From a virus (lineage: Duplodnaviria > Caudoviricetes): DNA of 61,702 nucleotides. The position numbers were made by a program, and so were the translations under genes. Below, piece by piece: positions 19,734 to 51,914 of the stretch (the first letter of the stretch is position 1; each line of letters begins with the position of its first letter). Location of the stretch: the IMG/VR virus record IMGVR_UViG_3300048011_000479, positions 1 through 61,702 of that record. One strand, given 5' to 3'. The notes below the pieces were generated by a model. The model had not been told where the DNA came from, did not search any database, and worked only from the letters and a program-made list of their open reading frames with translations.

Positions 19734-19740
19734 TATTTAT
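19734..19740 (-). promoter_or_regulatory. late promoter
   Basis: ATAAATA overlapping the stop of the giant gene. Confidence 0.55.
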
Positions 19741-28700: not shown

Positions 28701-31700
28701 TTCAGTAATATCATTCCAGTTAAAGTAAACCGCATCACCAATATTACTTCCTTGGTATGCATCAGCAGGTGCTCTTACAAGAATATGATCTGTTGTTACG
28801 TCATTTAATGGATAATCGCCTGTAGTGATTACAGGAAAGTCTAAATAATTATTATGCTGTTTGTAAAGCTCTGAACGCCAGCGGCTTACGCTATCAAATG
28901 TTCCAAATACAATATTATCAGTTCTACCAAATACACGTCTACGTGATTTGTATAATCCGCCGTTGTATTGTACAATAGCACCTAGTTTATAATCTGTTGC
29001 AAAATTAAAGTTATCTTTAAATGCACTTTTAACATAAGTTGCTTCTGGAGCGCCGACAACAATATATTTTCCATCCGGGCTCATTGTAACACTGTCGCCA
29101 AACTTACTTGCACCGTTATCAAAGTTTGTAATTGGCTCTAGTGTTTGATGTGACTGTAATGTTCCATATACTGTACTGCCGTCTTGTTCTCTCTTATATA
29201 TATGAACTTTGCCTTCGCCATCAGTTGGAGCGCCGACCGCTACAAAATTATTATCTGCATCTGTTGCTAAACTGTCACCAAACGTATCGCTGCTATTTGG
29301 ATTATAAATGTCTTCATCAAAGTTATATGCAGTTGATGCTTTTAGTACAGCCCATTTATTATCACTATCGACACTATCGACCCAAATAAGTTCATCTGGG
29401 CTTATATCAGTTTCTGCATATTTGTTAGCATCTTCAAGTTTAGCAACACGATTTGATAATAATGTTGAAACAACGCCTGATAGTCCAGTTTCTTCGGTAG
29501 CAAGTACTCCATCGCCTAAATCAATAGTAACTCTGTTTAAGTTTATATCTAAGACTTCATAAAATCCGTCTAACTCAACAACATTTTTAATACCAATATA
29601 ATCACCAATATTAAAGTTATGTATTTTATTAAGTACAAGTTCTGCTTGATTACTATCTGCAGGGACAGCACTTACTACTATAAATTGTGTATCAACATGT
29701 TTATAAACATTCCAGTCTTGTCCCTCAAATGTTACCCAAATATAATCGCCTTCTGCAACGTCTGCAATATCAGCACCAAGAATGTCTTCTTTAAGTGTTG
29801 CAATAAATTGTACATCAGTATCTCTAACATATCCAGCAGTTTTAATCGGGGTATCACTTACATAACGTGTAGGAAATGGAGTATGATTGTAATGATTAGA
29901 TTTAACATAAACATCACTAGACGGTATTCTATGTACTAAATCGCCTTCGTCGCCGGCAATATCATCTGTAAGTAATACAGGTTGTGGGCTTAGATCCATT
30001 TCTTCTTCGTCAAGAATGTATTCAACTTCTTCAAAACCGTCAGCGGCGCCGTATTGTCCAACACGTACAGCCCATTCTTCGTAAAATTCTAAACTTTCTT
30101 TGTCTGCTGCACCTAGTGCATCAAATAGTTTTGTTAGCGCATTGCGAGTGCCTTTGTCTTGTATCATTCCTTGATAGAATTTATACTGACTTACATCATC
30201 ATTAATAATGTTTGCTAGATAATCACGTTTTTGATAACCTATTAAATGCTGTGCAATTTCTTGTTGATTAACATCAAAATTATCTGTATCTAAATCATAA
30301 AAGTCTGCAAACTGATTAGTTTTATATTCTAAGTTTGGTATTAGTCCAGAAGTTGGTTTTTCAGCTAGCCTGTACCAGCTCGAAGATTTAAAATCTTTTG
30401 TGCCGCTTACTTTTGATGTTGCAGTATAATAAAATTCTTTATACTTAACAACATCGCCGATTGCATAATCTTTGTAGGGTGTCCATTCAAATACTTGTGC
30501 TTGATCGTATACAAATCCAGGAATGTTTAATCCGCCTGTCCAGTCAGCAGTTCTGTAGCCTAATACACGAATACGTTCTTGTCTATATCCAGGTTCTGGA
30601 TCATAAATTACATCTTTAAACTCTGTTTCGTTATCGAGCAGTACAACATGTTCTGTTTGCACTAATGGAAGTTTTAGTGCATAAATTCCGTCAGCAGTAT
30701 TTTTTAAAGTTAACACAAATGTATTGTCGTCTTGTCTAAATATATTACAAAATTCTTGTTTTAGTTTTGATCCGTCTGCTTTTACTAATCCGTAATCATA
30801 AAATGTATCAAAAACATTATCAACTACTGCACTATCTCTTTTGAATTGAATTTTATCTGCAGAGGGACTTAGTGTAATTAATGCACCAGCGTCCCAATTT
30901 TGCAATGTCCAAAACATAAATTCTTTTGCACTTAATTTCCAATTCTCAACAGACTCTAATTCTCCATTAAAGTTGTCAAATACAAATCCTTGATCTTTTA
31001 AGTGTTCTCCATATCCTATTAGAAAATCTACTACTTCTTGTGTAGTTCTTAATAGTGTTCCGTATGGTAGCTCCTGTGGAAATACTCTATCAAATTTTGT
31101 TCTAAATACTGCACTTCTTCCACCTACTTCTGGCAAGAATGGCAACCTAACAAAGTTAGAAGCATCAAATACCTGAGTACTAGTATGTGCTATTTTTGTT
31201 CTATAAAATTGTCCGTCATATCTAACTATAACTCCTTCGATATAACGCTTGTTATTGTCCCATTCAATAAAGTTATCACTTATGCCGCCTACATTTACTG
31301 TAGGATCTTTTTCGTTAGACTGATAATTGTAATACTTAAAAGACGGATTAGTAGAATCATATCCTCTAATAATATAGCCACTGGTTGCTTTTTCAATTAC
31401 AACGCCGCTATAAGCCACAAGTTCGATAGGACTACTTGTTTGTAATATTACTTCGTAATTTTCGTCTGGAACAAAAACGTTTCCTTGACTTAGGGGTGTT
31501 CTTGAATCTAAAATTAGATTGAACTTACTCTTATCAGTAAATCCGCCAATTTTAAATGCCATTTGATTGCTAATACGCTTAACATTATTTTGATAATCTT
31601 CGTAGTTTACAAGAATATTACTTGCAAGATAGTTTGCAATTAAATTAACAAATCCAGAAGTATATGTTCTTGATCTTGTTTCTAGTGTAGAATTGTTTGG

Positions 31701-34700
31701 AAATACTAAATCTTCTAACCTAATACGCTTACCTGTTTCAGAATAAACAATTTGATTTGCAATATTACGTTGTACACGCAGTCTATCAAATCCTAGTCCG
31801 ATAATTTTTGCAGGCTGTATTAACGTCCATGCTTTAAATAACGAGAACGCATATTCTGAACTTCTACGCCATGCTGTTTCTACTGGTGCTTCGTCACCAA
31901 ATACAAAGGTGCTACGGGTTAATCTGTTGACATAGTTTTTAGCATATCCGCTGTCTAACGGACTTAGCAAGTTACCTTGTGTATCAACTGGAACAAATGT
32001 TGTTAATCCCGGACGCTTGTATTTTTCAACTATTATGTTAACTGTGTCTGGTTGAGCAATAGTACCTTTTTCTAAGTCTTCCCACATCAACAAGTTATTG
32101 CTAGTGTATGGTGCTGCTCCGTATTTGTCTTCCCACCACGTTGGTTTAATACTAAACCCTAGCATTTCCCAAGGATGTGTATGAGGACGATCTGTGTCAA
32201 ATGCTTGCTTGTAAACTGCTCTCCAGTAACCAGGAAGTTTTTCACCTGTAGGGGAATTCATACTTCCGTAGTTGTATGTAAATCTATTTTCTCTTTCGTA
32301 GAAATCAAAGCCAGTATAGTCAACGTCTCCTACTGTGCTTAACCAAGATGCAAAGTCTTTGAGCATAACATTGTCAATTGCTTGTTTGGAAACTGTAGTA
32401 TTTCTATTAGCACTTGGAACAAAACTGTGTATGTCAATAACTGCTGTATCGTAATCTACACTTAGATTATTAAATATTCTTTTTTCAAATTCTAATAATA
32501 AGTCGTCTCTATAATCACCGTACGCTCTAGTTATAGAACCATCGTGTCCTTGGATAACTTCGGTAGGTGTAGTATATGTATTGTCAACAAATTTAGCAGG
32601 AATAAACTTTGGATACATACCAAGTTTAGTCGGAGTAGGCGGAACATAAGAACCGTCTGTATTTTCATATTCAAAAATTTGTATTACATCATCTTCAGTT
32701 AATGGTAGTTCAATTTCACAGAAACCGTCTGCGTTAAATGTATAATCTCTACCATATACTAATTGTTCGTCATTTATGTAAACTGTAACTGCTTTTACGC
32801 TCGGTGTTGTAATATCAAATATTTCATTTAGTGCATAAAACTTATTATTAGGTATACCATTATAAGTAATTGTTCTTGCGCCACCCGTTGGTACCATGTC
32901 ACTAAAGTAAAATGGCAGTGTGCTGGTTTTGTTTTTATTAAGTTCTTTAAAGATTAAATCTACGTGTGCTTTAGGAGTTCCGTCAAATCCTAATTCTGTA
33001 GCAGTTTGTAAAAACAATCTTTTAAATTTAGCATACTCGCGTCTTGCAAAATCAATTGCCTTAATAACGTTTGCACTTTTATCTGTTATGTGATAAAGAG
33101 ATAAGTTAATTGGTCCAGTGTGTTGTAAAAACTTACGACCGTACTGTGCAGGATTAGCAATGTCTCTTAAATTACCTGCACCTGGAAAGTTTCCAAAGAA
33201 GTTATCTGCTTCTTGCACAATACTCGAAACATGTTCGTTAACTTCACCTAGTGTAAATGTATTAACATCATTATTAAGTGGATTTCTTTCTAGATTTCCT
33301 GCTAATTCATATACGCCGTTAGCATTTTTAGTAGCAGACGAACGTGTTTTTAAAACTACAATATCATCTATTTCCAACGGATTATTAAATCTTACAACAG
33401 CATTTGTACCCGCTGTTACAATTTCAAAATCAGTTCCTTCAAATTTAAAATTATTATTAACAGTAACACGGATATTTAAATCTGTTAAATCTGCACTATT
33501 ATTATATACATCAACTGGATAGTCTGTTTGATTACGTACTGTAACATACTGTCTTAGAACACGCTGTGTGCTTTCTATATTAGCTTGTGTCCACCCATTT
33601 ATGTTAACAAATTCTTCTCTATTTACATGCTTGTGTAAAAAGCCGTTGTCGGTGCCAACTGTTACAGTTTCTAAATTATCGTTTGTATATGTAAACGAAC
33701 GTCTCAATAAGTCAAAGTTAAAAACAACGTCACCAATGTTTTCAATACTTCTATAACTTAGTGGAAATCCTAACTGTTCGTCGTCTGCACCTGCGCCAAC
33801 TGCATATGAAAAAATCATATTACCTCGGAACGTGCTATCGCTATAGTTAGCATAACTCACACCGTCAGCATCAAATAATTCAAATAGCGGTTGTTGATTG
33901 GCTGTATTCTTTTCTTGTGTTAGACTCCAAGTTTCGCCATCATACCAAAACATACGTCCTTGATAAGTTTCGCCACTTAGTGCTAATACTGTTTCATGTA
34001 GCTGCGGTGCAGAATCGTCTTCTTCAACAAGACTAATTTGTCTACGTCCTTTGTGTATAATAAATTTAACTTTAAATATTTTTCCTGCTTCACGAATATC
34101 TTCCTCAGCAGTAAACAATACACGCATACCGTCTACAAGTTCAACACCATCAATATTGTATCCTATTGACCCTTCGATAGTTGAAAATATATCTTTTGTA
34201 AATGTGTCAATTAGGTCTACGTTTACTTTGTTTACAGTACCAAAGTTCATTAACTTTAGATCTGCATTAAATTCTATAATTGGACGAGTAGCACGTTGTG
34301 CTTGATCAACATTTATAGTTTGTCCGTTTGCTTCTGCACTTGCTTGTATAACATCTTTGTGGAACCAGCGATTGTATCTGCTCCACATGTTTTTATCTAA
34401 ACTACCTCTGTTAATTACAATATAATCTTTTGTAGCAGGATAACCATTTGCATTAGCAAAAGGCAATCTATCAAATGCATTTGTATCAAAAGGTAAGTCT
34501 CTATTTTCTGTATAAGCACCTGGAATTTCTAAATCAGTTTCTTTAACTAATCTAATCGATGTTCCTACACCTTCTACATAAAAGTCGCCTTTGCTGTATA
34601 TTTCAGGAGTTACAAATCCAGCAAAAGAGATTTTCATTCCGTTTGATAAACTTAATCCGTCTTTAGTAGTGTAGCTAGTTTTACCTATTACTTCACGCTC

Positions 34701-35549
34701 AACATTAATTTCGGTATTTTCTTCAATGTCTTTAATTTGAATTAAACCACTATTATTAATGTCATTTTCTGCAACATAATATAATACTTCAGGAGTATCA
34801 TTTCTTACAGTTATTGTTATACTGCCTTTTTCGACACCCTGTGCGCTAACACCGTCATTGTAATTAAAACTTTCTTCAAGTGTTCTTTTTGTTTTAAATG
34901 TTAACGGATTACCTGGGGCAGTAATATCAAACGTATAAGTTTGTCCTCTATATAATATTAGAGTTGGATTGTTAACTAACTCGTCTGTGCTAAAGCTATA
35001 AGTGTTATTATCAACATTGTTAATTAAGTTTACTGCAATTGTACTTTGCACACCTCGACTTTGTCCAGCAATACGAACAGTTTGCGGACCATATGGTAGC
35101 CAATAGTATTCACGGAAGTTTGTAAAAGCGTCCCAATTAATATTGGCGTTCCAAGCGTAATATTCTTGCCCGTTAAGCACTTCTTGATTGTCTACATTTC
35201 CACCAAAACTTTTAATTTGATTCAAGTAATCGTTATAGTCTTTATAAAAAGTAACATTATCTAAATCGTCTTTGATTAGTGTAACAGGTTCAAATTGATA
35301 ATTTTCACGTTGATCAGAAACATCGCCGACATAGTTGTCGTCAGCATTATATGCTTTTGAAATTGTTCTTCCGTAATATCCGTTTAGTTTTTCTGCAACA
35401 CCAGGTTGTGTTAATTGGTCTAATGTAGACTGTAAAAACTTTTTGTTAGCATCTGTTCTAAAAAACTTAGGTAGAAACTTTTCACTTTTTCTATCCGACT
35501 TTCCGTCTGCTGGTAACGGATATTCTTGTTGATCGTTATCGTAAGCCAT
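19737..35549 (-). CDS. giant (5270 aa) baseplate wedge/structural protein in the gp7 position
   Basis: Uninterrupted ORF directly after gp6-like; FG-GAP-like propeller repeats, CBM5/12-like repeats, GSGY..P.V.I.GGGG repeats, VKPYKTKIRE motif. Confidence 0.75.
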   Translation of the reverse strand: MAYDNDQQEYPLPADGKSDRKSEKFLPKFFRTDANKKFLQSTLDQLTQPGVAEKLNGYYGRTISKAYNADDNYVGDVSDQRENYQFEPVTLIKDDLDNVTFYKDYNDYLNQIKSFGGNVDNQEVLNGQEYYAWNANINWDAFTNFREYYWLPYGPQTVRIAGQSRGVQSTIAVNLINNVDNNTYSFSTDELVNNPTLILYRGQTYTFDITAPGNPLTFKTKRTLEESFNYNDGVSAQGVEKGSITITVRNDTPEVLYYVAENDINNSGLIQIKDIEENTEINVEREVIGKTSYTTKDGLSLSNGMKISFAGFVTPEIYSKGDFYVEGVGTSIRLVKETDLEIPGAYTENRDLPFDTNAFDRLPFANANGYPATKDYIVINRGSLDKNMWSRYNRWFHKDVIQASAEANGQTINVDQAQRATRPIIEFNADLKLMNFGTVNKVNVDLIDTFTKDIFSTIEGSIGYNIDGVELVDGMRVLFTAEEDIREAGKIFKVKFIIHKGRRQISLVEEDDSAPQLHETVLALSGETYQGRMFWYDGETWSLTQEKNTANQQPLFELFDADGVSYANYSDSTFRGNMIFSYAVGAGADDEQLGFPLSYRSIENIGDVVFNFDLLRRSFTYTNDNLETVTVGTDNGFLHKHVNREEFVNINGWTQANIESTQRVLRQYVTVRNQTDYPVDVYNNSADLTDLNIRVTVNNNFKFEGTDFEIVTAGTNAVVRFNNPLEIDDIVVLKTRSSATKNANGVYELAGNLERNPLNNDVNTFTLGEVNEHVSSIVQEADNFFGNFPGAGNLRDIANPAQYGRKFLQHTGPINLSLYHITDKSANVIKAIDFARREYAKFKRLFLQTATELGFDGTPKAHVDLIFKELNKNKTSTLPFYFSDMVPTGGARTITYNGIPNNKFYALNEIFDITTPSVKAVTVYINDEQLVYGRDYTFNADGFCEIELPLTEDDVIQIFEYENTDGSYVPPTPTKLGMYPKFIPAKFVDNTYTTPTEVIQGHDGSITRAYGDYRDDLLLEFEKRIFNNLSVDYDTAVIDIHSFVPSANRNTTVSKQAIDNVMLKDFASWLSTVGDVDYTGFDFYERENRFTYNYGSMNSPTGEKLPGYWRAVYKQAFDTDRPHTHPWEMLGFSIKPTWWEDKYGAAPYTSNNLLMWEDLEKGTIAQPDTVNIIVEKYKRPGLTTFVPVDTQGNLLSPLDSGYAKNYVNRLTRSTFVFGDEAPVETAWRRSSEYAFSLFKAWTLIQPAKIIGLGFDRLRVQRNIANQIVYSETGKRIRLEDLVFPNNSTLETRSRTYTSGFVNLIANYLASNILVNYEDYQNNVKRISNQMAFKIGGFTDKSKFNLILDSRTPLSQGNVFVPDENYEVILQTSSPIELVAYSGVVIEKATSGYIIRGYDSTNPSFKYYNYQSNEKDPTVNVGGISDNFIEWDNNKRYIEGVIVRYDGQFYRTKIAHTSTQVFDASNFVRLPFLPEVGGRSAVFRTKFDRVFPQELPYGTLLRTTQEVVDFLIGYGEHLKDQGFVFDNFNGELESVENWKLSAKEFMFWTLQNWDAGALITLSPSADKIQFKRDSAVVDNVFDTFYDYGLVKADGSKLKQEFCNIFRQDDNTFVLTLKNTADGIYALKLPLVQTEHVVLLDNETEFKDVIYDPEPGYRQERIRVLGYRTADWTGGLNIPGFVYDQAQVFEWTPYKDYAIGDVVKYKEFYYTATSKVSGTKDFKSSSWYRLAEKPTSGLIPNLEYKTNQFADFYDLDTDNFDVNQQEIAQHLIGYQKRDYLANIINDDVSQYKFYQGMIQDKGTRNALTKLFDALGAADKESLEFYEEWAVRVGQYGAADGFEEVEYILDEEEMDLSPQPVLLTDDIAGDEGDLVHRIPSSDVYVKSNHYNHTPFPTRYVSDTPIKTAGYVRDTDVQFIATLKEDILGADIADVAEGDYIWVTFEGQDWNVYKHVDTQFIVVSAVPADSNQAELVLNKIHNFNIGDYIGIKNVVELDGFYEVLDINLNRVTIDLGDGVLATEETGLSGVVSTLLSNRVAKLEDANKYAETDISPDELIWVDSVDSDNKWAVLKASTAYNFDEDIYNPNSSDTFGDSLATDADNNFVAVGAPTDGEGKVHIYKREQDGSTVYGTLQSHQTLEPITNFDNGASKFGDSVTMSPDGKYIVVGAPEATYVKSAFKDNFNFATDYKLGAIVQYNGGLYKSRRRVFGRTDNIVFGTFDSVSRWRSELYKQHNNYLDFPVITTGDYPLNDVTTDHILVRAPADAYQGSNIGDAVYFNWNDITEAYINNEGIEIVGLDMGNPVKLTTNKDHGLVDGDQIVLTDFPNDNLTFRNDIYDNSDVNTPFDTLEQQGVKGFEGFTYYVKKTLDQQVELYRDAELTVKVNGTVGFTGTPIGAAANNFNLGDGTVQGIIRKINIPFSGKQNEITKEFLTETVHTIRRKVEEVFYIVDPVNIPNIPVTITTTGSIPTENIAVGDILGQENNTVFATVNKINGNTIEVINVSGIFKTTGNLLNKTVEDSNSWIDLGASTVPTDISALISTGTRITTETGNATVVYIRKELGRLVIYANDKNGVFAPSGQLYIDDQFLIGDYERPLHDAVNRSDVLGGYWEIATDNSYIPGDITSDNAYGLVISDIKNGYNPNTFSNPDAAWKESSTRLPYKSSVQNTFDNPVQLVEDQPFQKEVDLIRVLSHRSQGIGGDVNEVDVLSDKWIVRLPKSVSDKSQTDPTTSIGVFLNDVREQDGSIVDLSDRGFGDNPYSIINNVQTPYELWDGYIDIDISQTGGNEFDLVPGDKVREGDTGPTAIVTYYQRDLDKVRIYVKDVAGTFTIGSRYGFANKYINKEVGSNRNRFGTIESRQLADDDIGKLAVFQHTENLAIPPKLEYPVTSQTDEIADYETKFITGIEYQTWIEEFKPGLPRNTLAPSTENNDWAEVDNIPINVGRDASTFIREGAFFVYEHNVETDKYDLVNGYILPNRENNRRLASEIKLINNGDFYKLVVNSGENHINDTDVEGGAGRLYFVVHGSNQFGEYNWQLGKNQNFKGVYSNTDSYYEGQIVIYNDVFYKALTNLGNEEFNTSKWQLLSDHVDFVGYLPNTSGYVFPGDDSSIVDLNTSNFGRTFDISEKGNVLATIAEYDDENKLIIYSLADNHFEYKTEFTAPVDSKGFGSQIAVSNNGNLIAVSAPETDAENLLQGKVYVYKNTGGTFSLHQTLESPNKELAEGFGLRVGFDGNQLIVSGSTSDIVLETTFDRYLNRDPDSEDKFNSKYVNDPQRELSVGQTTFDNGFTTYVSSIQDSGIVYLYENVNDSLIFGQKLKYNNFNVENFGKNAIVQDNAILVGLPTLEGGKVAVYIKDADTQVWSMHREPVVPVDVDKMRGSFVYDTNKNLMLSRLDIIDPILGKVAGIAEQEISYKTYYDPANYNVGNESTKEALTVWAQEQVGKIWWDLSTVKFVDYHQGDILYSSNIWGNLAQGASIDVYEWVESRVIPSQWDVRANTNQGVASGYSGQTLYGDTRYVQKDIYDNISQSFSQRYYFWVKDTRIVPNVANRNKTAFDIANIIRDPAGQQLRFVTILGNDRFVVHNTNKLTNEKDVAINFRYWTIDNQDNNIHTEYQIITDGLDTSRPKSVIEEKWFDSLVGADKYHREVPDPTLSVKQKYGNQLKPRQGWFVNRQEALKQFIERVNRVLADELAVDSLNINKLFEKDPIPSELSGVYDTAVDTEEELRLVGTVRAETAVLQPVIVDGTVTSVNIVNAGRGYRLPPKIEFEGTGEDLELRANINVIGAITSVDVVNGGTNYQDTLTLTVRALSALVRADSTLAGAWAIYAWNNTTRSWNKSVQQYYNVADYWNYKDWYAEGYSSLTSVDFLIDDYYQLNIIDDAIGDIVKISDVGAGGWILLEKIVNIDTPDYTTGYRTIGRQNGTVEFLDKLYTQTGGDTELRKILETIRDDLFVDKLANEYNQLFFASLRYVLSEQNYADWLFKTSFIKAKHNVGELVEKTTFQNDNLPSFEAYVEEVKPYKTKIREYLSAYDKLDNTQSVLTDFELSPFYDPQRGEIISPKVTINEGVLSDINFNVDVYPQKHWIDNFTYEVEEILIKDGGSGYSEVPLVTISGGGGTGATARAFIGSGSVKSIVVDNPGSGYTSVPTVNIEGTQADGGTQPRVSVVLGNKKIRTLNVKQKFDRTTPDYEILVLKESETFVSTGTELKLRLKYPMDLTRANVSVVINGVEALDSEYSYNNESSISSDKTHTHDLGYILLEQSRVAGTTIVVTYNKSYEMLSAADRTKLLYNPETGQYGTDLGQLMDGIDYGGVEVRGFEFGQDLGFDSQPWYTTSWDSYDETFDDESFPTTGVQTSFTLSKPLEENSLYNVYINATRVDDPNYDGSTKTYLAEDGSTVLALGNPNALMKSLTTNSGEYEVTTGANGAPVYTINIENVAEWEEYFTFDGNPITPTITIRKSSSDGSFLPSGAGFDSLIEGGNLQYGTATGLDAGDITIDGDGFITPTTSKGPEELIPGQMHDTLDLKVFDRVADGGSVMSNRNYTATALQTEFDLDILPHNIFSLFVKVNGSMLTDSDYNVDLAQKKITLTNALNAGDRVNISSMSGNGENILDIDNFIGDGNTRVFVTNSVYRDDLQSYITVNGLTATVALFETDATYGDRQGLVALEFSTAPDNDAFIYYALYDTNESTVQRYSATNVNRFIGDGSTVGFELAPEPSSKLPLSHNVIVKVDDTILYPGYTQQWYIVPDRNYQLDTSQWAGSSLAPDLVDVYLNGRKLKLLSDYNWDFANTQVILFDNVGETGDDLEVVVPSTADYAFSKNTRLGLSQTTGTFEVGETITIGYPDSTQFTATVKSYSTNLLTIIGTLPGLEQLVDADDTIPIEGQTSGASTNIVQDVDLIEAGDNLVINTAPAEGTVIDIFTFARHELQDIQMETKTNVSRRVLTIGSEDYYEAHRRGKGLIELREPALDAAYIWVVLNGTLLTANRDYKLVKLDSYVQITRPLEANDIIQVIHFAAPKSNEKFGFRMFKDMLNRTNYKRLNKNNVYTLAQELNITDKQIVLADASNITIPDVDANNPGVLFIEGERIEYFQVAGNTLSQLRRGTLGTGSRTVYEEGTEIMDQSDKETVPYRDRMISLIALEDESTQIVLDWLPTKGVDEFEIFVGGKRLRKNAIAAYQFQKVDENGNLVTGLIDKDSPEGDTTLDAEFTLTIENDVAIVELAEKPATNSRTLIVRKVGKLWQIPGQQLRYSDNPVAQFIRGATTDLPK

Positions 35550-47205: not shown

Positions 47206-48216
47206 TTGTTTAAAAAAGCGGCTGTCTTTACAGACATACACTTTGGCTTAAAAGGCAACAGTAAGGTACACAACAACGATTGCGAAGAATTTATCGATTG
47301 GTACATTGAGCAAGCAAAAGCTAACGGTTGCGAAACTGGTATCTTCTGCGGCGACTGGCATCACAACAGAAATAGTTTAAATCTAACAACTATGGATGCT
47401 ACAATCCGTAGTTTAGAAAAATTAGGTGCTGCGTTTGATAAGTTTTACATGTTTGTTGGTAACCACGACTTGTACTACAAAGACAAACGTGACGTAAGTT
47501 CTACTATTTTTGGCAAACACATTGAAGGTATTACGTTTGTAGACGAAATATACGAAGAAGAGGATGTTGCACTAGTTCCGTGGCTTGTAGGCGAAGAATG
47601 GAAGAAGATTGAAAAGATTAAAGCCAAATACATGTTTGGGCACTTCGAACTTCCTAGTTTTTATATGAACGCTATGGTGCAAATGCCGGATCACGGTGAC
47701 TTGCGTCCAAGTCATTTTGCCAATCAAGACTATGTGTTTAGTGGACACTTCCACAAACGTCAAGTACAAGGTAAAATTCATTACATTGGTAATGCATTTC
47801 CTCACAACTATGCAGATGCAGGCGATGACGAACGCGGCATGATGATACTTGATAGAGAAAACGGCAAGGAACCAGAATATATCAACTGGTGGAACTGTCC
47901 TAAGTATCGTACAACTACGCTGAGTAAACTACTAGACCCTGAAGCAAACATTATTAAACCTAAAATGTACTTGCGTGTTACTATTGATGTTCCGATTAGT
48001 TATGAAGAAGCACAATTTATTAAAGAGACATATATTAGTACACATGACTGTCGTGAAATAACACTAATACCACAGAAACAAATTGAAGAAATTACAACAG
48101 ACTTAGACATTTCAACATTTGAAAGTGTTGACGAAATCGTATCTAAAGAAATTACTGCAATTGATAGTGAAAACTTCAATAAGAAAATGCTATTGGACAT
48201 ATATAACGACCTATGA
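47206..48216 (+). CDS. gp47: recombination endonuclease subunit (Mre11/SbcD-like)
   Basis: DIHFG, GDWHH, GNHD, GHFE, SGHFH; TTG start after GAGGA. Confidence 0.92.
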   Translation: MFKKAAVFTDIHFGLKGNSKVHNNDCEEFIDWYIEQAKANGCETGIFCGDWHHNRNSLNLTTMDATIRSLEKLGAAFDKFYMFVGNHDLYYKDKRDVSSTIFGKHIEGITFVDEIYEEEDVALVPWLVGEEWKKIEKIKAKYMFGHFELPSFYMNAMVQMPDHGDLRPSHFANQDYVFSGHFHKRQVQGKIHYIGNAFPHNYADAGDDERGMMILDRENGKEPEYINWWNCPKYRTTTLSKLLDPEANIIKPKMYLRVTIDVPISYEEAQFIKETYISTHDCREITLIPQKQIEEITTDLDISTFESVDEIVSKEITAIDSENFNKKMLLDIYNDL

Positions 48217-49982
48217 TTAAAATTAAAGACTTAACAGTAAAAAACTTTATGAGTGTGGGCAATCAGACCCAGGCTGTAGACTTTAACAGAGAAAAATTAA
48301 CTCTTGTTCTTGGTGAAAACTTAGATCAAGGTGGCGACGACAGCGGAAGTCGTAATGGTACAGGTAAAACAACAATTATCAATGCATTAAGTTATGCAAT
48401 GTACGGCAAAGCTCTTACAAATATTAGAGCAAACAACCTTATTAATAAAACAAACTCAAAAGGTATGGTTGTTAGCTTAGATTTTGAAAAAGACGGTAAT
48501 CAATATCGATTAGAACGAGGACGTTCTCCTACTTTCTTTAAATTTTATATTAATAACGAAGAACAAGTAGAAGACGAATCGCAAGGTGACAGTCGCAAAA
48601 CACAAGAATACCTAAATGATTTGTTAGGTATGTCGCATGACATGTTCAAACACATTGTTGCGCTGAATACCTATTCAGAACCGTTCCTTGCAATGCGACA
48701 AAACGATCAACGTGCTATTATTGAACAGTTGCTAGGTATTACTATACTGTCTGAGAAGGCAGAAAACTTAAAAGAACAAGTTCGTAATACAAAAGACGCT
48801 ATTACACAAGAAACTCTTAAGATTGAGGCTATACAAACTGCTAATAGTAAAATTGAAACTACTATTACTAGTCTACAAAGTAATCAAAAGGCTTGGCTTG
48901 CAAAACGCAGTACTGATACTATTAAATTAAAAGAAGCAATCGACGAGTTAGAACACTTAGACATTGAAAAAGAACTGAATTTGCATGAACAGTTATCTAA
49001 CTGGACTGAGCTTAATACAGCAATTACTGCTCTTAATAAAGAAAAAAGCACACTAGACTCTGCACTATTACGTGCAACCAAAAGTGTCGAAAAAGCAGAA
49101 AAAGACATTGCTGATTTAGATGATGCTACTTGTTATACATGTGGACAGGAACTACATGCAGACAAAAAAGCTGAAATTGAAACACGAAAATCAAAAGAAT
49201 TAACTGATGCAATAGCATATCAAACTGAAGTTGCTGGCAAGTTAGAAGAAGTAATAAAAGCACTTGACGAAATTGGTGATATCAACGGCAAGCCTAATAC
49301 TTACTACGAAACTGCTAAAGAGGCATATGAACATAGACAAAATGTTGACAGTTTAAAACAAGCATGGGAAACTAAAAAATCTGAAGAAGATCCTTATCAA
49401 ACACAGATTGATGAACTAACTGCTAGTGCTATACAAGAAATTAACTGGGATAGCGTAAACGAACTTACTAATCTAAAAGAACACCAAGAGTTCTTGCTCA
49501 AGTTGCTAACAAACAAAGATAGCTTTATTCGCAAGAAGATTATTGAGCAAAATCTAGCATATCTAAACAATAGACTTACATATTATCTTGACAAACTAGG
49601 TTTACCGCATCAAGTACTGTTCCAAAACGATTTAAATGTTGAAATTACACAACTAGGACAAGACTTAGACTTTGATAACCTGTCACGTGGTGAGCGCAAC
49701 AGACTTATCTTAGGGCTGAGCTTTGCATTCCGCGATGTTTGGGAAAGTCTGTATCAGAATATCAACTTGTTGTTTATCGACGAGCTTATTGACAGTGGAA
49801 TGGACACTGCTGGTGTAGAAGGTGCGTTGAGTGTTCTCAAGAAAATTGCACGTGAGCGTGAGAAAAACATTTTCTTAATCTCACACAAAGATGAACTAGT
49901 AGGTAGAGTCAACACAATCCTTAAAGTTATTAAGGAAAACGGCTTTACATCATATGAAAACGATTTAGAAGTAATAGAATGA
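48213..49982 (+). CDS. gp46: recombination ATPase subunit (Rad50/SbcC-like)
   Basis: KNFMSVG, NGTGKTT Walker A, CYTC zinc hook, LSRGE signature, LLFIDE Walker B, ISH. Confidence 0.93.
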   Translation: MIKIKDLTVKNFMSVGNQTQAVDFNREKLTLVLGENLDQGGDDSGSRNGTGKTTIINALSYAMYGKALTNIRANNLINKTNSKGMVVSLDFEKDGNQYRLERGRSPTFFKFYINNEEQVEDESQGDSRKTQEYLNDLLGMSHDMFKHIVALNTYSEPFLAMRQNDQRAIIEQLLGITILSEKAENLKEQVRNTKDAITQETLKIEAIQTANSKIETTITSLQSNQKAWLAKRSTDTIKLKEAIDELEHLDIEKELNLHEQLSNWTELNTAITALNKEKSTLDSALLRATKSVEKAEKDIADLDDATCYTCGQELHADKKAEIETRKSKELTDAIAYQTEVAGKLEEVIKALDEIGDINGKPNTYYETAKEAYEHRQNVDSLKQAWETKKSEEDPYQTQIDELTASAIQEINWDSVNELTNLKEHQEFLLKLLTNKDSFIRKKIIEQNLAYLNNRLTYYLDKLGLPHQVLFQNDLNVEITQLGQDLDFDNLSRGERNRLILGLSFAFRDVWESLYQNINLLFIDELIDSGMDTAGVEGALSVLKKIAREREKNIFLISHKDELVGRVNTILKVIKENGFTSYENDLEVIE

Positions 49983-50188
49983 TTGATGACGATACACATG
50001 ACAAGCTAACAAAAGCCTACATGGAGTATTTTAAGGCAAGCGAGGCGTATGAGTCGCGCAAGTCACACAGGACACACGCAGCCAGCAGACGTTGGTTGCG
50101 TGAAATTCGTAAACTTGCAAAAAAACGTATGGACGAAATCCACAACGACTACACCGCCAAGAAAGAGGCTGAAAAACAAGGCAAATAA
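49979..50188 (+). CDS. small basic helical protein
   Basis: 69 aa, Arg/Lys-rich, ATGA-coupled to gp46. Confidence 0.65.
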   Translation: MIDDDTHDKLTKAYMEYFKASEAYESRKSHRTHAASRRWLREIRKLAKKRMDEIHNDYTAKKEAEKQGK

Positions 50189-50199
50189 TAAGTACATTC

Positions 50200-50649
50200 A
50201 TGCAGTGGACTTATCAAGGAAAAACAATTGACACAATACCAGACGAGTATGAAGGCTTTGTTTATCTTATTACAAATACCACTACAGGCCAAAAATACGT
50301 AGGCAAAAAACTAGCAAAATTTAAAACTACTAAGCCACCTCTAAAAGGCAAGAAAAATAAAAGACGCGGTTACAAAGAAAGCGATTGGAAGACTTACTGG
50401 GGATCCAGTGATAGGCTAAACGCAGATGTAGCAGCACTAGGCGAAGAACACTTCACAAGAGAAATATTATACCTATGTAAAGGTAGGGGCGAAATGTCCT
50501 ACATAGAGGCAAGAGAACAGTTTGATCGCAGAGTACTTGAAACTGATGATTACTACAATGGTATCATTAATGTTAGAGTAGGCGGATCAGACAAACTCAA
50601 ACAGGCATTGCTAGAACATCACATCCAGGCAAAACAATCCAACACTTAA
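50200..50649 (+). CDS. minimal GIY-YIG nuclease
   Basis: GFVYLITN..GQKYVGKK, YWGSS, FTREIL, conserved Glu (IEAREQ), YYN; no C-terminal DNA-binding module. Confidence 0.8.
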   Translation: MQWTYQGKTIDTIPDEYEGFVYLITNTTTGQKYVGKKLAKFKTTKPPLKGKKNKRRGYKESDWKTYWGSSDRLNADVAALGEEHFTREILYLCKGRGEMSYIEAREQFDRRVLETDDYYNGIINVRVGGSDKLKQALLEHHIQAKQSNT

Positions 50650-51092
50650 GGTTGGCGGGCCAGTTCGAAAATACCGCTGTGGAAAAAGCTAGGGTGATAC
50701 CTGCACACGTAACATACTGATTGACTACCCAGAGGTAGGAAGCCATCAAACAAATTGGGCTCACTAGTTGGTATAGATAGATTGTTGGCTGTCGAAAAAC
50801 ACAAACACAGTACATAAAAACTCTTTAGCAATAGGAACGAAGCGAGAGGTAATGTATTATATAGATAGCATTAACCTAGTTAATGTATTCTTTATGTTAC
50901 ATATGTCGACGTAGGTTGGGAAAGGTCAGAGCCCATTGTACTTTGTGTATAAACAATTACCTACTTCCAAGTCTCGGCTGTGACGAACTCACATGAAGCT
51001 AATTTTGAGACAGGCTGGAACCGTAACAGGTTCCGTCTGACTGAAACAATCTACATGAAACTTAGACGCATTACATTCGTAATGCGTTTTTT
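50650..51092 (+). ncRNA. candidate large structured ncRNA (family unassigned)
   Basis: No credible ORF; many local hairpins plus crossing long-range helices (50756-62/50929-35, 50778-86/51045-53, 50809-14/50937-42, 50911-16/50959-64); ends in a terminator. Confidence 0.6.
51064..51092 (+). terminator. intrinsic terminator
   Basis: ACGCATTAC-ATTC-GTAATGCGT followed by a T tract. Confidence 0.85.
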
Positions 51093-51179
51093 CATATATA
51101 ATCACTTCTATCACGCATAATTAAATACGAAGTAAGTAGTTTGAGCGTTAGCGAAAACTTTATTCGCACAGCGAATAAC

Positions 51180-51186
51180 ATAAATA
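51180..51186 (+). promoter_or_regulatory. late promoter
   Basis: cATAAATA upstream of ATG 51225. Confidence 0.6.
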
Positions 51187-51224
51187 TACTTAACAATACA
51201 TCTTTAATAAGGATAACTCAGAAA

Positions 51225-51914
51225 ATGCGTGTACAAGACATAATTGCGGAAAACAAAGAATTAGATGAAGCTCCTGTTGGACTACTAAAGCAAGTAGGAC
51301 GTAAAATAGGTGCAAAAGCAGCTGGTGCTATTGGCATGAAAGGCACAGCAGCTAAATTAAGTGGTGCTGCCGAAGCTGGTGACGAAGCAAGACAACTTAG
51401 TGTTGCTCTTAAGGGATATGCTGGCAAAACTGGTATTAATTTAAAACAAATGCAAGGTCCGCAACTTGCAGCATTTTTAAAGTCTAAAGGTTATCCTAAC
51501 ATGCATCTTAAGGGTGTACAAGGTATTATGACGCCTAAGCAACAAGATCAAGCAATTATGACAGCAGTACAGGATGCTAATAAAGCTGGAGGAGATACTA
51601 CAGTAGGTACTAGTAGTGCCCCTGCACAACCAAGCGCACCGGGTGCCGCTGGCGCGGCTAAAGGGCAAGGCACTAGTGTTGCTGGTAAGCCTACTAGCCC
51701 GCAAGTAGACAAAAACAAAGATGGTAAAGACGATGCAACTGGTGAGCCAATGGGCGCAGTTGATGCAAACAAGGATGGTAAGGACGACAACACTGGTAAA
51801 GTTATTCCAATGCCTAAAGCAAGTGCAGCAGCAAAAGGTATTCCTGCAGATTTACAAAAACAACTTGATGCACTGTCTCCAACAGAGAAAAAAGTATTGG
51901 CAGGAGCTCTATAA
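51225..51914 (+). CDS. Ala/Gly/Lys-rich putative virion (head-internal) protein with DxNxDGxDD repeats
   Basis: ATG 51225 after TAAGGA and a late promoter; IAE/LDEA motifs; DKNKDGKDD and DANKDGKDD. Confidence 0.65.
   Translation: MRVQDIIAENKELDEAPVGLLKQVGRKIGAKAAGAIGMKGTAAKLSGAAEAGDEARQLSVALKGYAGKTGINLKQMQGPQLAAFLKSKGYPNMHLKGVQGIMTPKQQDQAIMTAVQDANKAGGDTTVGTSSAPAQPSAPGAAGAAKGQGTSVAGKPTSPQVDKNKDGKDDATGEPMGAVDANKDGKDDNTGKVIPMPKASAAAKGIPADLQKQLDALSPTEKKVLAGAL

What the first reader, a model, noticed from the sequence alone, without database searches (positions are those of the whole stretch)
50188..51092. Minimal GIY-YIG nuclease immediately followed by a ~440-nt multi-pseudoknot non-coding element: candidate nuclease-RNA system
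Seen: the longest non-coding stretch in a gene-dense window starts right at the nuclease stop and ends in a strong terminator. Local hairpins: TGGCGG/CCGCTG (50653-79), CTACC/GGTAG (50725-38), an AT-rich arm with CATTAAC/GTTAATG (~50852-902), GTCTCGG/TTGAGAC (50971-51011) enclosing TGTGA/TCACA, and GGAACC/GGTTCC (51017-34). Long-range helices cross each other: TGGGCTC 50756-62/GAGCCCA 50929-35, TAGATTGTT 50778-86/AACAATCTA 51045-53, AGTACA 50809-14/TGTACT 50937-42, GTAGGT 50911-16/ACCTAC 50959-64. The 149-aa protein has only the catalytic core plus a very basic insert (KFKTTKPPLKGKKNKRRG) and lacks the C-terminal DNA-recognition domains of I-TevI/Seg homing enzymes. Inference: ORF and RNA are one late transcript and may form a ribonucleoprotein, with RNA-supplied specificity by analogy to HEARO/OMEGA systems, or the RNA is a new large phage RNA or ribozyme of the GOLLD/ROOL kind. 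I cannot assign it to a known family by eye.
Basis: partly seen in the sequence, partly recalled or inferred. Interest (0 to 1): 0.85.

Follow-up and report, generated by a model that had tools for sequence, protein, structure and literature searches.

The report
New large phage RNA beside nuclease
Right after a small DNA-cutting enzyme gene, this giant marine phage carries a large, intricately folded non-coding RNA that matches no catalogued RNA family, recurs in well over a hundred related phage fragments, and has no known function yet.

Summary
The finding is real. Window 50650-51062 plus the terminator at 51064-51089 is a conserved, pseudoknotted non-coding RNA of about 370-515 nt. It starts at the stop codon of an intact, catalytic-domain-only GIY-YIG gene (50200-50649).

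- **Structure:** Compensatory changes support about ten helices. The core is 91.8% paired against 34-43% when partners are slid, 23 of 42 pairs change on both sides, and 0 of 500 shuffles reach this. The 5' domain is 98.8% paired. Two supported helices cross, so there is at least one pseudoknot.
Seven hold. Two long-range ones (TGGGCTC/GAGCCCA and TAGATTGTT/AACAATCTA) and the inner TGTGA/TCACA do not.
- **Rfam:** No match.
- **Linkage:** sbcD-sbcC-GIY-YIG-RNA is kept in 41 of 41 SbcC-selected loci (three carry a divergent RNA, two are cut short). The RNA also occurs without the nuclease in a phage of about 30 kb, and a nuclease relative occurs without the RNA in phage Melnitz.
- **Unexpected feature:** Two exposed 7-12-nt words, R1 and R2, stay identical to each other while changing between lineages (95 of 98).

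Function is unknown. My best guess is an autonomous scaffold RNA that presents two identical recognition words. A nuclease-RNA particle is neither shown nor excluded.

The parts
47206..48216 (+). SbcD-like nuclease subunit gene (context, conserved upstream neighbour)
   Evidence: PHROG 100, E 5.5e-70. Pfam Metallophos.
48213..49982 (+). SbcC-like subunit gene (context). The order sbcD-sbcC-GIY-YIG-RNA is conserved.
   Evidence: PHROG 77, E 2.4e-105. The same order is found in loci whose SbcC is only 52-60% identical.
49979..50188 (+). 69-aa basic ORF of no known family. It is variably present between sbcC and the nuclease gene.
   Evidence: No Pfam, PHROG, PADLOC or NCBIfam match. It is alignable in 58 of 80 loci and over at least 80% of its length in 23.
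50200..50649 (+). Minimal GIY-YIG nuclease gene (149 aa, catalytic domain only, conserved basic beta-hairpin insert)
   Evidence: Pfam PF19835, 121.5 bits. Invariant residues include Y22, Y33, R87, E103 and N120 in 32 sequences. AlphaFold2 pLDDT 91.3, and the best PDB match is the I-TevI catalytic domain, TM 0.66.
50650..50798 (+). RNA 5' domain with six helices:
- H1 50654-58/50674-78
- H2 50679-81/50706-08
- H3 50688-89/50703-04
- H4 50714-20/50768-74
- H5 50725-29/50734-38
- H6 50776-80/50789-93

Other lineages carry a different 5' domain here.
   Evidence: 98.8% paired against 25-45% when slid, and 11 of 27 pairs change on both sides. The alternative 5' domains are visible.
50799..51062 (+). 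Conserved RNA core:
- Helix c 50810-14/50937-41, long range, with further lineage-specific pairs on its 5' side.
- Helix d 50821-25/50844-48 and 50828-29/50842-43.
- Variable arm e, base at 50852-54/50900-02.
- Helix f 50911-16/50959-64, which crosses c.
- Helix k 50917-20/50932-35.
- Helix g 50924-30/51036-42.
- Helix h 50971-77/51005-11.
- Helix j 51016-22/51029-35.
   Evidence: Helix g never breaks but shows only one-sided changes: all 36 true variants at 50927 are C to T, which keeps the pair. In short forms, arm e shrinks to hairpins capped by GAAA, GTAA or GCAA.
50988..50999 (+). Word R1 (CTCACATGAAGC), in the loop of hairpin h
   Evidence: It shares a word of 7 nt or more with R2 in 95 of 98 sequences, against 92 of 1960 shuffles. 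About 12 different words occur.
51050..51061 (+). Word R2 (TCTACATGAAAC), single-stranded tail just 5' of the terminator
   Evidence: Same evidence as for R1. The replaced words are AGGTTAATGTA in L226, ATCATCAAGT in L116 and GAATAAT in L328/L330/L333.
51064..51089 (+). Intrinsic-terminator-like hairpin followed by a T run
   Evidence: Relatives carry other hairpins at the same place.
51138..51159 (+). Small conserved hairpin after the terminator. The stem covaries (AGTT/AACT) and the loop is TGAGCGNNAGCGAAA. It may or may not belong to the RNA.
   Evidence: It occurs once in the window. It is present in 116 of 157 distinct loci, with stem variants GTGT/ACAC, ACTT/AAGT and TGTT/AACA.

Best explanation
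This is a genuine new family of pseudoknotted non-coding RNA, about 370-515 nt long.

**Where it sits**
- It is encoded once per genome in an uncultured marine and estuarine lineage of jumbo phages.
- It starts at, or just inside, the stop codon of a conserved minimal GIY-YIG nuclease gene and ends at an intrinsic terminator.

**Architecture**
- A replaceable 5' domain and a variable-length arm surround an almost invariant core held together by crossing helices.

**Proposed mechanism (inferred, not shown)**
- The fold is a rigid scaffold that displays two identical single-stranded words.
- R1 lies in a hairpin loop. R2 lies just before the terminator.
- Both words go to one common partner acting in trans: a nucleic acid read by base pairing, or a sequence-specific protein bound at both sites.
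- The RNA is an autonomous module, because it also occurs in an unrelated small phage.
- In the jumbo phages the nuclease gene is a stably co-inherited, probably co-transcribed neighbour whose physical link to the RNA is open.
For: **Conservation**
- All related loci that reach far enough hold the element.
- Among the 80 loci (chosen by likeness to the nuclease), and counting only the loci where the segment aligns over at least 80% of its length, the core is 89-98% identical (46 and 58 loci), against 78% for the sbcC 3' end (78 loci) and 88% for the nuclease gene (80 loci).

**Structure**
- MAFFT core alignment A2: 91.8% paired against 34-43% slid, 23 of 42 pairs change on both sides, and 0 of 500 shuffles reach the observed values.
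- 5' domain: 98.8% paired.
- Model-fitted alignment A4: 96% paired. It leans towards helices c, d, e, h and j, but not towards f, k and g.
- Helices c and f cross, and both have compensatory changes.
- The arm shrinks to GNRA-capped stubs.

**Not coding:** only 37- and 46-aa ORFs lie in it, and its length differs between relatives by 141 nt (374-515).

**Not a known family:** Rfam gives nothing at gathering score on the whole window, nothing at E up to 10 on 50100-51300, and nothing on the element in 7 diverse loci.

**Copy number:** one copy per long contig in each of 5 records.

**The two words**
- 95 of 98 sequences keep the same word of 7 nt or more at both sites, against 4.7% of shuffles.
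- About 12 different words occur, three of them wholesale replacements.

**Autonomy:** the RNA is in a contig of 25.6 kb estimated 85% complete, with no sbcCD or SegE-type gene.

**Expression hint:** RNA-library contigs from 4 runs cover 50190-51087 and none cover 51088-51195.
Against: - No partner for the words was found.
  - No exact 7-nt complement recurs at a consistent place within 1.5 kb.
  - No complement turned up in the 64 kb held of the L226 record.
  - Complementarity to arm e exists only in a subset of members.
- Helix g and much of the core never vary, so part of the fold is untested.
- All RNA evidence comes from assembled contigs of RNA libraries. These cannot show transcript ends, strand or level, and may contain DNA.
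- The very tight linkage with the nuclease gene over deep divergence (41 of 41; SbcC down to 52% identity) is what a functional pair would show. That speaks against calling the RNA simply autonomous.
Confidence: 0.5

Rival explanations
1. Nuclease-RNA particle. The minimal GIY-YIG protein binds this RNA, which supplies target recognition or regulation. R1 and R2 would be guide or protein-binding sites.
For: - The gene and the RNA are directly adjacent, and the order is fixed over deep divergence.
- The protein has no DNA-binding domain, yet its catalytic residues are invariant.
- RNA-library contigs bridge the junction.
- The words vary between lineages, as guides would.
Against: - The RNA keeps its R1/R2 identity in a phage with no such nuclease.
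- A nuclease relative lacks the RNA in Melnitz.
- The PHROG profile it matches best (phrog_447) is itself only 148 positions long, so short stand-alone proteins of this kind are a family of their own.
- One word, ACATGAA and its extensions, is shared by about 70% of members. That is far less variable than the guides of known RNA-guided nucleases (recalled).
- No target was found.
Confidence: 0.15
2. Free-standing homing endonuclease parked beside an independent, highly conserved RNA gene that serves as its homing target. The linkage would be selfish rather than functional.
For: - The protein matches the SegE family, and weakly matches homing-endonuclease models.
- The conserved block starts 10-20 nt before the ATG and ends just after the RNA, while the flanks vary and carry insertions of 1-2.7 kb.
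- The invariant core of the RNA would make a stable cleavage target.
Against: - Homing genes are sporadic among close relatives (recalled). Here 41 of 41 SbcC-selected loci with enough sequence carry the gene, and no empty site was seen.
- The protein diverges in step with SbcC (56-72% against 52-60%), as vertical descent would give.
- The catalytic residues are under purifying selection.
Confidence: 0.12
3. Self-processing ribozyme, for example a diverged relative of group I introns or a new class. R1 and R2 would be equivalent reaction sites or substrate mimics.
For: - Its size, crossing helices, invariant junction nucleotides, replaceable peripheral domains and GNRA-capped variable arm are what large ribozymes show (the resemblance itself is recalled).
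- It lies next to an I-TevI-type endonuclease gene.
- It has moved between unrelated phages.
Against: - No group I match, even at E up to 10.
- No interrupted host gene: a stop codon precedes the RNA, a terminator follows it, and the next gene has its own start.
- No joint between R1 and R2 appeared in the RNA-library contigs, although contigs drop rare forms.
- The helix order differs from P3-P9 (my comparison, recalled).
Confidence: 0.12
4. Cis-acting 3' element of the nuclease mRNA, or an RNA antidote that keeps a toxic nuclease in check. R1 and R2 would be two binding or cleavage sites for the protein, loosely like type III toxin-antitoxin pairs.
For: - The RNA begins at the stop codon and shares the terminator.
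- Two identical sites within a locus that differ between loci is the pattern of cognate RNA repeats in type III systems (recalled).
Against: - About 400 nt of pseudoknotted fold is far more than a stabiliser would need.
- The RNA exists without the gene.
- The order is reversed, and the repeats are 7-12 nt set 62 nt apart rather than tandem units.
- PADLOC gives only a weak homing-endonuclease match.
Confidence: 0.08
5. Template RNA for a reverse transcriptase. R1 and R2 would be the repeats that allow template jumping, as in DRT2.
For: Two direct repeats flank a 62-nt segment. The analogy with DRT2 is recalled; of that paper I saw only the search listing and the start of the abstract.
Against: No RVT_1 match in 4 records: contigs of 256, 186 and 169 kb and a 2.4-Mb bin.
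Confidence: 0.02

Closest known systems
GOLLD and ROOL (large, ornate, phage-associated RNAs of unknown function)
   Same: It is a large structured RNA carried by phages. It has a conserved core with variable periphery, it was found by comparative analysis, and it has no known function.
   Different: No match to any Rfam model. It is smaller (about 370-515 nt). It has a fixed partner gene (GIY-YIG) and two identical words that change together. Whether it forms multimers was not tested.
HEARO / OMEGA systems (IscB or TnpB with their RNA)
   Same: A small nuclease gene lies directly next to a structured RNA several hundred nucleotides long, and the two are co-inherited.
   Different: The nuclease is GIY-YIG, not RuvC/HNH. 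The RNA lies 3' of the gene. No hypervariable guide lies at an RNA end. Transposon ends were not looked for. The RNA also occurs without the nuclease.
Group I introns that carry GIY-YIG homing endonuclease genes (T4 td / I-TevI)
   Same: An I-TevI-type catalytic domain lies next to a pseudoknotted RNA of intron-like size with replaceable peripheral arms, and the RNA has been transferred between phages.
   Different: No interrupted gene and no group I model match. The protein lacks the I-TevI linker and DNA-binding domain. The helix order differs.
T4 Seg proteins and the SegE_GIY-YIG family (PF19835)
   Same: The protein is a full-length match to the family domain, and its catalytic residues are intact.
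   Different: It is 149 aa with no C-terminal DNA-binding part. It is not sporadic among relatives. An RNA partner is not described for Seg proteins, as far as my three literature searches reach.

Membership tests
Any Rfam 15 family (including GOLLD, ROOL, HEARO, group I/II introns, RNase P, tmRNA) | Covariance-model score at or above the family's gathering score | tested here: not met
   - 0 matches at gathering score on the whole window.
- 0 matches at E up to 10 on 50100-51300.
- In 7 diverse loci, 4 matches at E up to 1, none of them on the element.
- ARAGORN finds no tRNA or tmRNA.
Group I intron | Interrupts a host gene, with exons that join to a continuous gene | tested here: not met
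   The nuclease ORF ends with TAA at 50647-49. A terminator follows the RNA. The next gene has its own ribosome-binding site and ATG at 51225.
Group I intron | P3-P7 pseudoknot enclosing P4-P6, with a G-binding P7 | tested here: inconclusive
   Crossing helices exist (c crosses f; g crosses both). Their order does not map cleanly onto P3-P9. That comparison is mine, made from memory.
Group I intron | Self-splicing | not testable with these tools
   No skipping joint at the element's ends appeared in the RNA-library contigs, but contigs drop rare forms.
HEARO / OMEGA | IscB, IsrB or TnpB nuclease (RuvC with or without HNH) | tested here: not met
   The only Pfam match is SegE_GIY-YIG. The fold matches the I-TevI catalytic domain.
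HEARO / OMEGA | A variable guide segment at one end of a conserved scaffold | tested here: not met
   The variable parts are a hairpin arm and the 5' domain. The words R1 and R2 are internal, duplicated and mostly the same across members.
SegE_GIY-YIG (PF19835) | Pfam score above the cut-off over the whole domain | tested here: met
   121.5 bits against a cut-off of 25. Residues 3-123 match profile positions 1-123 of 123.
SegE_GIY-YIG (PF19835) | Catalytic Tyr, Tyr, Arg, Glu and Asn conserved | tested here: met
   Y22, Y33, R87, E103 and N120 are invariant in 32 sequences of 56-88% identity. Assigning these residues to catalytic roles is by recalled analogy with I-TevI.
Free-standing homing endonuclease (behaviour) | Sporadic presence among close relatives, with empty sites | tested here: not met
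   41 of 41 SbcC-selected loci with at least 1500 nt after sbcC hold the gene. The order is kept down to 52% SbcC identity.
Free-standing homing endonuclease (behaviour) | A C-terminal DNA-binding domain | tested here: not met
   149 aa. The model shows one domain plus a C-terminal helix.
Type III toxin-antitoxin | Tandem RNA repeats upstream of an endoribonuclease toxin gene | tested here: not met
   The RNA is downstream. It has two short words 62 nt apart. PADLOC gives only a weak homing-endonuclease match.

The most novel reading that the evidence does not exclude
The minimal GIY-YIG enzyme and this RNA form a particle in which the duplicated word R1/R2 directs the nuclease to its substrate. 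That would be an RNA-directed nuclease built on a GIY-YIG fold, outside Cas, OMEGA and Argonaute systems. In that case the RNA-only copy in the small phage would work with another protein.
Probability: 0.12. Interest if true: 0.95.

Novelty: categorically new. Interest (0 to 1): 0.8.

Why it matters
Structured RNA classes of 400 nt or more are rare, and each one so far (ribozymes, GOLLD, ROOL, OLE, the OMEGA RNAs) has opened new biology.

- **Abundance:** This RNA is widespread in marine and estuarine viromes.
- **Test material:** The fold is already well constrained by covariation. There is a fixed nuclease partner in a jumbo-phage lineage, and a nuclease-free copy in an unrelated small phage.
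- **A specific signal:** Two exposed words are kept identical while they drift. That is a rare signature, and it points to a specific unknown partner.
- **Testable question:** The finding makes it possible to ask directly whether a GIY-YIG enzyme can work with an RNA.

Tried and rejected
**Coding region or remnant of a C-terminal domain.** Rejected. The longest + strand ORFs inside the element are 37 and 46 aa. Its length differs between relatives by 141 nt (374-515). The substitution pattern is base-pair compensatory.

**Partner for R1/R2 in cis.**
- Exact 7-nt complements within 1.5 kb gave 7 scattered hits in 123 loci.
- Complementarity to arm e exists in the window (CTTTATGT at 50890-97, with one G-U pair) and in L226. 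It is absent from most members, including all those with short arms.
- R1 pairing with R2 through the CATG palindrome is lost in the variants ACATAAT and ACAGAAAG (reading).

**R word as a genome-wide DNA signal.** 17 matches against 14 expected in the window.

**Reverse-transcriptase template.** No RVT_1 match in 4 records.

**Homologues in cultured phages.**
- blastn against 50,697 phage records matched only the nuclease gene, in 4 Melnitz records.
- The RNA model found nothing in the whole genomes of PA5oct and Phosso, and only a weak match (E 0.4) in Melnitz.
- PA5oct's four published ncRNAs lie elsewhere in its genome (passages and Table 1 of PMC7318152).

**Cellular genomes.** 15 exact-motif hits, about the number expected by chance for an 18-mer by my own estimate. 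Only 3 were true, and all 3 lie on phage-type contigs binned into MAGs.

**RNA-library contigs.**
- No joint between R1 and R2. The only recurrent joint is the short-arm allele.
- The lack of cover over 51088-51195 and the low cover of the flanks are not evidence of transcript ends.

**Other negative searches.**
- PDB sequence search with the nuclease gave 0 hits.
- Proteins next to the RNA in the small phage matched no informative family.

**Literature.**
- Three searches found no description of a GIY-YIG-associated structured RNA.
- PMC10690425, a catalogue of more than 10,000 candidate viral structured RNAs built from IMG/VR, was seen only as the search listing, the start of the abstract and 3 passages. 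Its supplementary tables are closed and may list this motif.

Full report
**What is at the coordinates**

The window is a 61.7-kb fragment of an IMG/VR virus record, estimated about 16% complete. Around the finding the + strand carries these features in order:

- an SbcD-like gene (47206-48216);
- an SbcC-like gene (48213-49982);
- a 69-aa basic ORF (49979-50188);
- a 149-aa ORF (50200-50649);
- a stretch with no ORF of 60 aa or more;
- a terminator-like hairpin (51064-51089);
- the next gene, whose ATG is at 51225.

The 149-aa protein matches Pfam SegE_GIY-YIG over the whole model (121.5 bits against a cut-off of 25). The + strand of 50650-51092 folds better than its shuffles (z -2.61, 0 of 100). 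The - strand does not (z -0.55). No tRNA or tmRNA is found, and no Rfam family matches at gathering score or at E up to 10.

**It is conserved**

The best 80 were kept.
- In every locus that reaches far enough, the non-coding stretch is alignable by blastn. Its length runs from 374 to 515 nt.
- Identity to the window was measured in those 80 loci. They were chosen by the protein, so they are biased for the gene but not for the RNA. The medians below count only the loci where the segment aligns over at least 80% of its length (number in brackets):
  - sbcC 3' end: 78% (78 of 80);
  - nuclease gene: 88% (80 of 80);
  - RNA 5' domain: 83% (53 of 80);
  - the two core blocks: 98% (46 of 80) and 89% (58 of 80);
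  - downstream gene: alignable over at least 80% of its length in only 4 of 80.

**It is structured**

- Core alignment A2 (plain MAFFT, 76 sequences under 90% identical). I named eight helices, which the tool counted as seven because the two parts of helix d fall within its 3-column rule.
  - 91.8% of cells pair, against 34-43% with partners slid by 1-3 columns.
  - 23 of 42 pairs show changes on both sides.
  - No measure was reached by any of 500 shuffles.
- 5' domain on alignment A1 (50 sequences): 98.8% paired against 25-45% slid, and 11 of 27 pairs change on both sides.
- Alignment A4 (98 sequences aligned to a covariance model built from A2): 96% paired. It is fitted to helices c, d, e, h and j, so it leans towards those but not towards f, k and g.
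- Helix c (50810-14/50937-41) changes on both sides at all 5 pairs.
- Helix f (50911-16/50959-64) has UA 88, GC 4, CG 3 at one pair. It crosses helix c, so at least one pseudoknot rests on covariation on both sides.
- Helix k (TGGG/CCCA) has UA 83, GC 3, CG 1 at its closing pair, with 8 unpaired.
- Helix g joins the loop of k to 51036-42 and never breaks, but it shows only one-sided changes.
  - A scan for non-C letters at 50927 found 38 stretches. 36 were true members by the model, and all 36 carry T, which keeps a G-U pair.
  - This is consistent with pairing but is not proof.
- Arm e varies from about 6 to about 115 nt. In short forms it is capped by GAAA, GTAA or GCAA.
- The 5' domain is replaced by a different fold in some lineages.
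- Three loci carry a much more divergent RNA that keeps the 3' module.

- Supported: CTACC/GGTAG, the AT-rich arm, GTCTCGG/TTGAGAC, GGAACC/GGTTCC, AGTACA/TGTACT and GTAGGT/ACCTAC.
- Plausible but invariant: TGGCGG/CCGCTG.
- Not supported: TGGGCTC/GAGCCCA and TAGATTGTT/AACAATCTA. They have 0 of 16 pairs with compensatory change and are broken in many members.
  - TGGGCTC is missing from whole lineages.
  - 50779 covaries with 50790 in the local hairpin H6.
- Not conserved: TGTGA/TCACA.

**An unexpected feature: two words that stay identical**

- R1 (50988-99) lies in the loop of hairpin h. R2 (51050-61) lies between helix g and the terminator.
- The two share a word that differs between lineages yet stays the same at both sites.
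- In A4, 95 of 98 sequences share at least 7 nt between the 30-nt tail and the hairpin-h region, against 92 of 1960 shuffles.
- About 12 words occur:
  - ACATGAA and its extensions (about 70%);
  - ACATGATG, ACATAAT, ACATAAAG, ACGTGAA, ACATGAG and ACAGAAAG;
  - GCATGAAG, GCATAAAG and GTATGAA;
  - the wholesale replacements AGGTTAATGTA (L226) and ATCATCAAGT (L116).
- GAATAAT occurs in the divergent form.
- The relation is identity, not complementarity.
- I found no partner in cis, and the word is not a genome-wide signal.
- Identity kept through many independent changes implies that both sites are read by one thing. What that thing is remains inference.

**Linkage to the nuclease**

- Loci found through the RNA's 18-nt core motif: 118 loci, of which 104 have at least 800 nt upstream. 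102 of those 104 hold the GIY-YIG gene.
- Loci found through SbcC (best 80): 41 have at least 1500 nt after sbcC, and all 41 hold the gene.
  - 36 hold the RNA core by the model.
  - 2 contigs end before the RNA core.
  - 3 hold the divergent RNA.
- The order sbcD-sbcC-GIY-YIG-RNA persists in loci whose SbcC is only 52-60% identical to the window's. The nuclease there is 56-72% identical. This looks like vertical descent, not sporadic homing.
- The catalytic residues are invariant in 32 sequences.
- The AlphaFold2 model (pLDDT 91.3) best matches the I-TevI catalytic domain (probability 0.96, TM 0.66 on the target). It has no further domain.
- The link is not obligate in either direction.
  - Five loci of another phage type hold the RNA with no sbcCD and no SegE-type gene. 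One is a 25.6-kb contig estimated 85% complete. The family search had no positive control; tblastn also found nothing.
  - Four Melnitz records hold a 68%-identical nuclease gene after the ribonucleotide reductase genes, and the RNA model finds no convincing match in that whole genome.
- In L074 and L066, about 290 and 110 extra nt separate the stop codon from the RNA.

**Which phage**

- SbcC is closest (49% identity or less) to jumbo phages such as PA5oct, Phosso and Atu_ph07.
- A related 256-kb contig is rated 72% complete, which implies a genome of about 350 kb.
- The RNA occurs once per long contig.
- Runs that hold the stretch are labelled seawater, estuary, marine, riverine and salt-marsh metagenomes.
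- Three genome-collection hits are phage-type contigs binned into MAGs.

**Expression**

- Assembled contigs from four RNA libraries (four studies) cover 50190-51087, bridge the ORF-RNA junction and give no cover over 51088-51195.
- Contigs cannot show transcript ends, strand or level, and RNA libraries can hold DNA. This is a hint of co-transcription up to the terminator and nothing more.

**Interpretation**

- Shown:
  - a new, abundant RNA family with a pseudoknotted fold supported by covariation;
  - stable co-inheritance with a minimal but intact GIY-YIG gene;
  - independent occurrence in an unrelated small phage;
  - concerted identity of two exposed words.
- Inferred:
  - the fold is a scaffold that presents the two words to a common partner acting in trans;
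  - the RNA is an autonomous module.
- Open:
  - whether the nuclease binds the RNA;
  - whether the RNA is catalytic;
  - what the words recognise.
- I put about 0.5 on the scaffold-with-two-words reading. The remainder is 0.15 on a nuclease-RNA particle, 0.12 each on selfish homing linkage and on a ribozyme, 0.08 on cis control or an antidote, and 0.02 on a reverse-transcriptase template.

**Novelty**

- There is no Rfam match for the window or for seven diverse relatives.
- Three full-text searches found no GIY-YIG-associated structured RNA.
- The IMG/VR-based catalogue PMC10690425 may list the motif in supplementary tables that I could not open.
- It fails the tested defining features of group I introns, of HEARO/OMEGA and of homing-type Seg genes. 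I therefore file it as a new class and not as a member of any of these.

Noticed in passing
window 50789-50798 (RNA position about 140-149); loci L008, L034, L036, L045, L052, L060, L062, L069, L071, L276, L280, L290, L311, L312, L325: Many independent contigs end 139-149 nt after the nuclease stop codon: 9 of 80 loci and 6 of 80. The point lies just before helix c, where deeply different alleles begin (ACACAAACACAGTACA against CTGCACATTACACA). It is probably an assembly break caused by co-existing alleles and not a genome end.
   Followed up: partly
window 51138-51159: A small hairpin lies between the terminator and the next gene. Its loop is conserved (TGAGCGNNAGCGAAA) and its stem covaries. 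It occurs once in the window and in 116 of 157 distinct related loci. It could be a 5' leader element of the next gene or a tail of the RNA.
   Followed up: partly
L328 5930-6290, L330 and L333 5975-6360: A much more divergent RNA lies after the same nuclease gene. It has a different core, but keeps hairpin h, hairpin j, a g-like strand, the terminator and a new R1/R2 word (GAATAAT). This suggests a wider superfamily.
   Followed up: partly
window 19737-35549 (- strand): A single ORF of 5270 aa, followed by ORFs of 1166, 952 and 878 aa on the same strand. Not examined.
   Followed up: no
L245, L256, L259 (genome contigs): Contigs of 73, 335 and 153 kb filed under Crocinitomicaceae and Neomarinimicrobiota MAGs carry the phage cassette sbcD-sbcC-GIY-YIG-RNA. 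They are likely jumbo-phage contigs binned with bacteria. The 335-kb one may be a near-complete genome.
   Followed up: partly
L026, L031, L039, L045, L046, L048, L053, L067, L069, L070, L276: Insertions of 1-2.7 kb lie between sbcC and the nuclease gene in some relatives. The conserved block begins only 10-20 nt before the nuclease ATG.
   Followed up: no
L201 7368-8030 (PA5oct) and L202 6911-7924 (Phosso): Both of the closest cultured jumbo phages have an unannotated gap of 0.66-1 kb a few genes after sbcC. The RNA model finds nothing there.
   Followed up: partly
window 50890-50897 and L226 13330-13350: In the window, the 3' strand of arm e (CTTTATGT) can pair with R1 and R2. In L226 the tip of the arm holds both a third copy of the word and its complement. 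This is seen only in a subset of members.
   Followed up: partly
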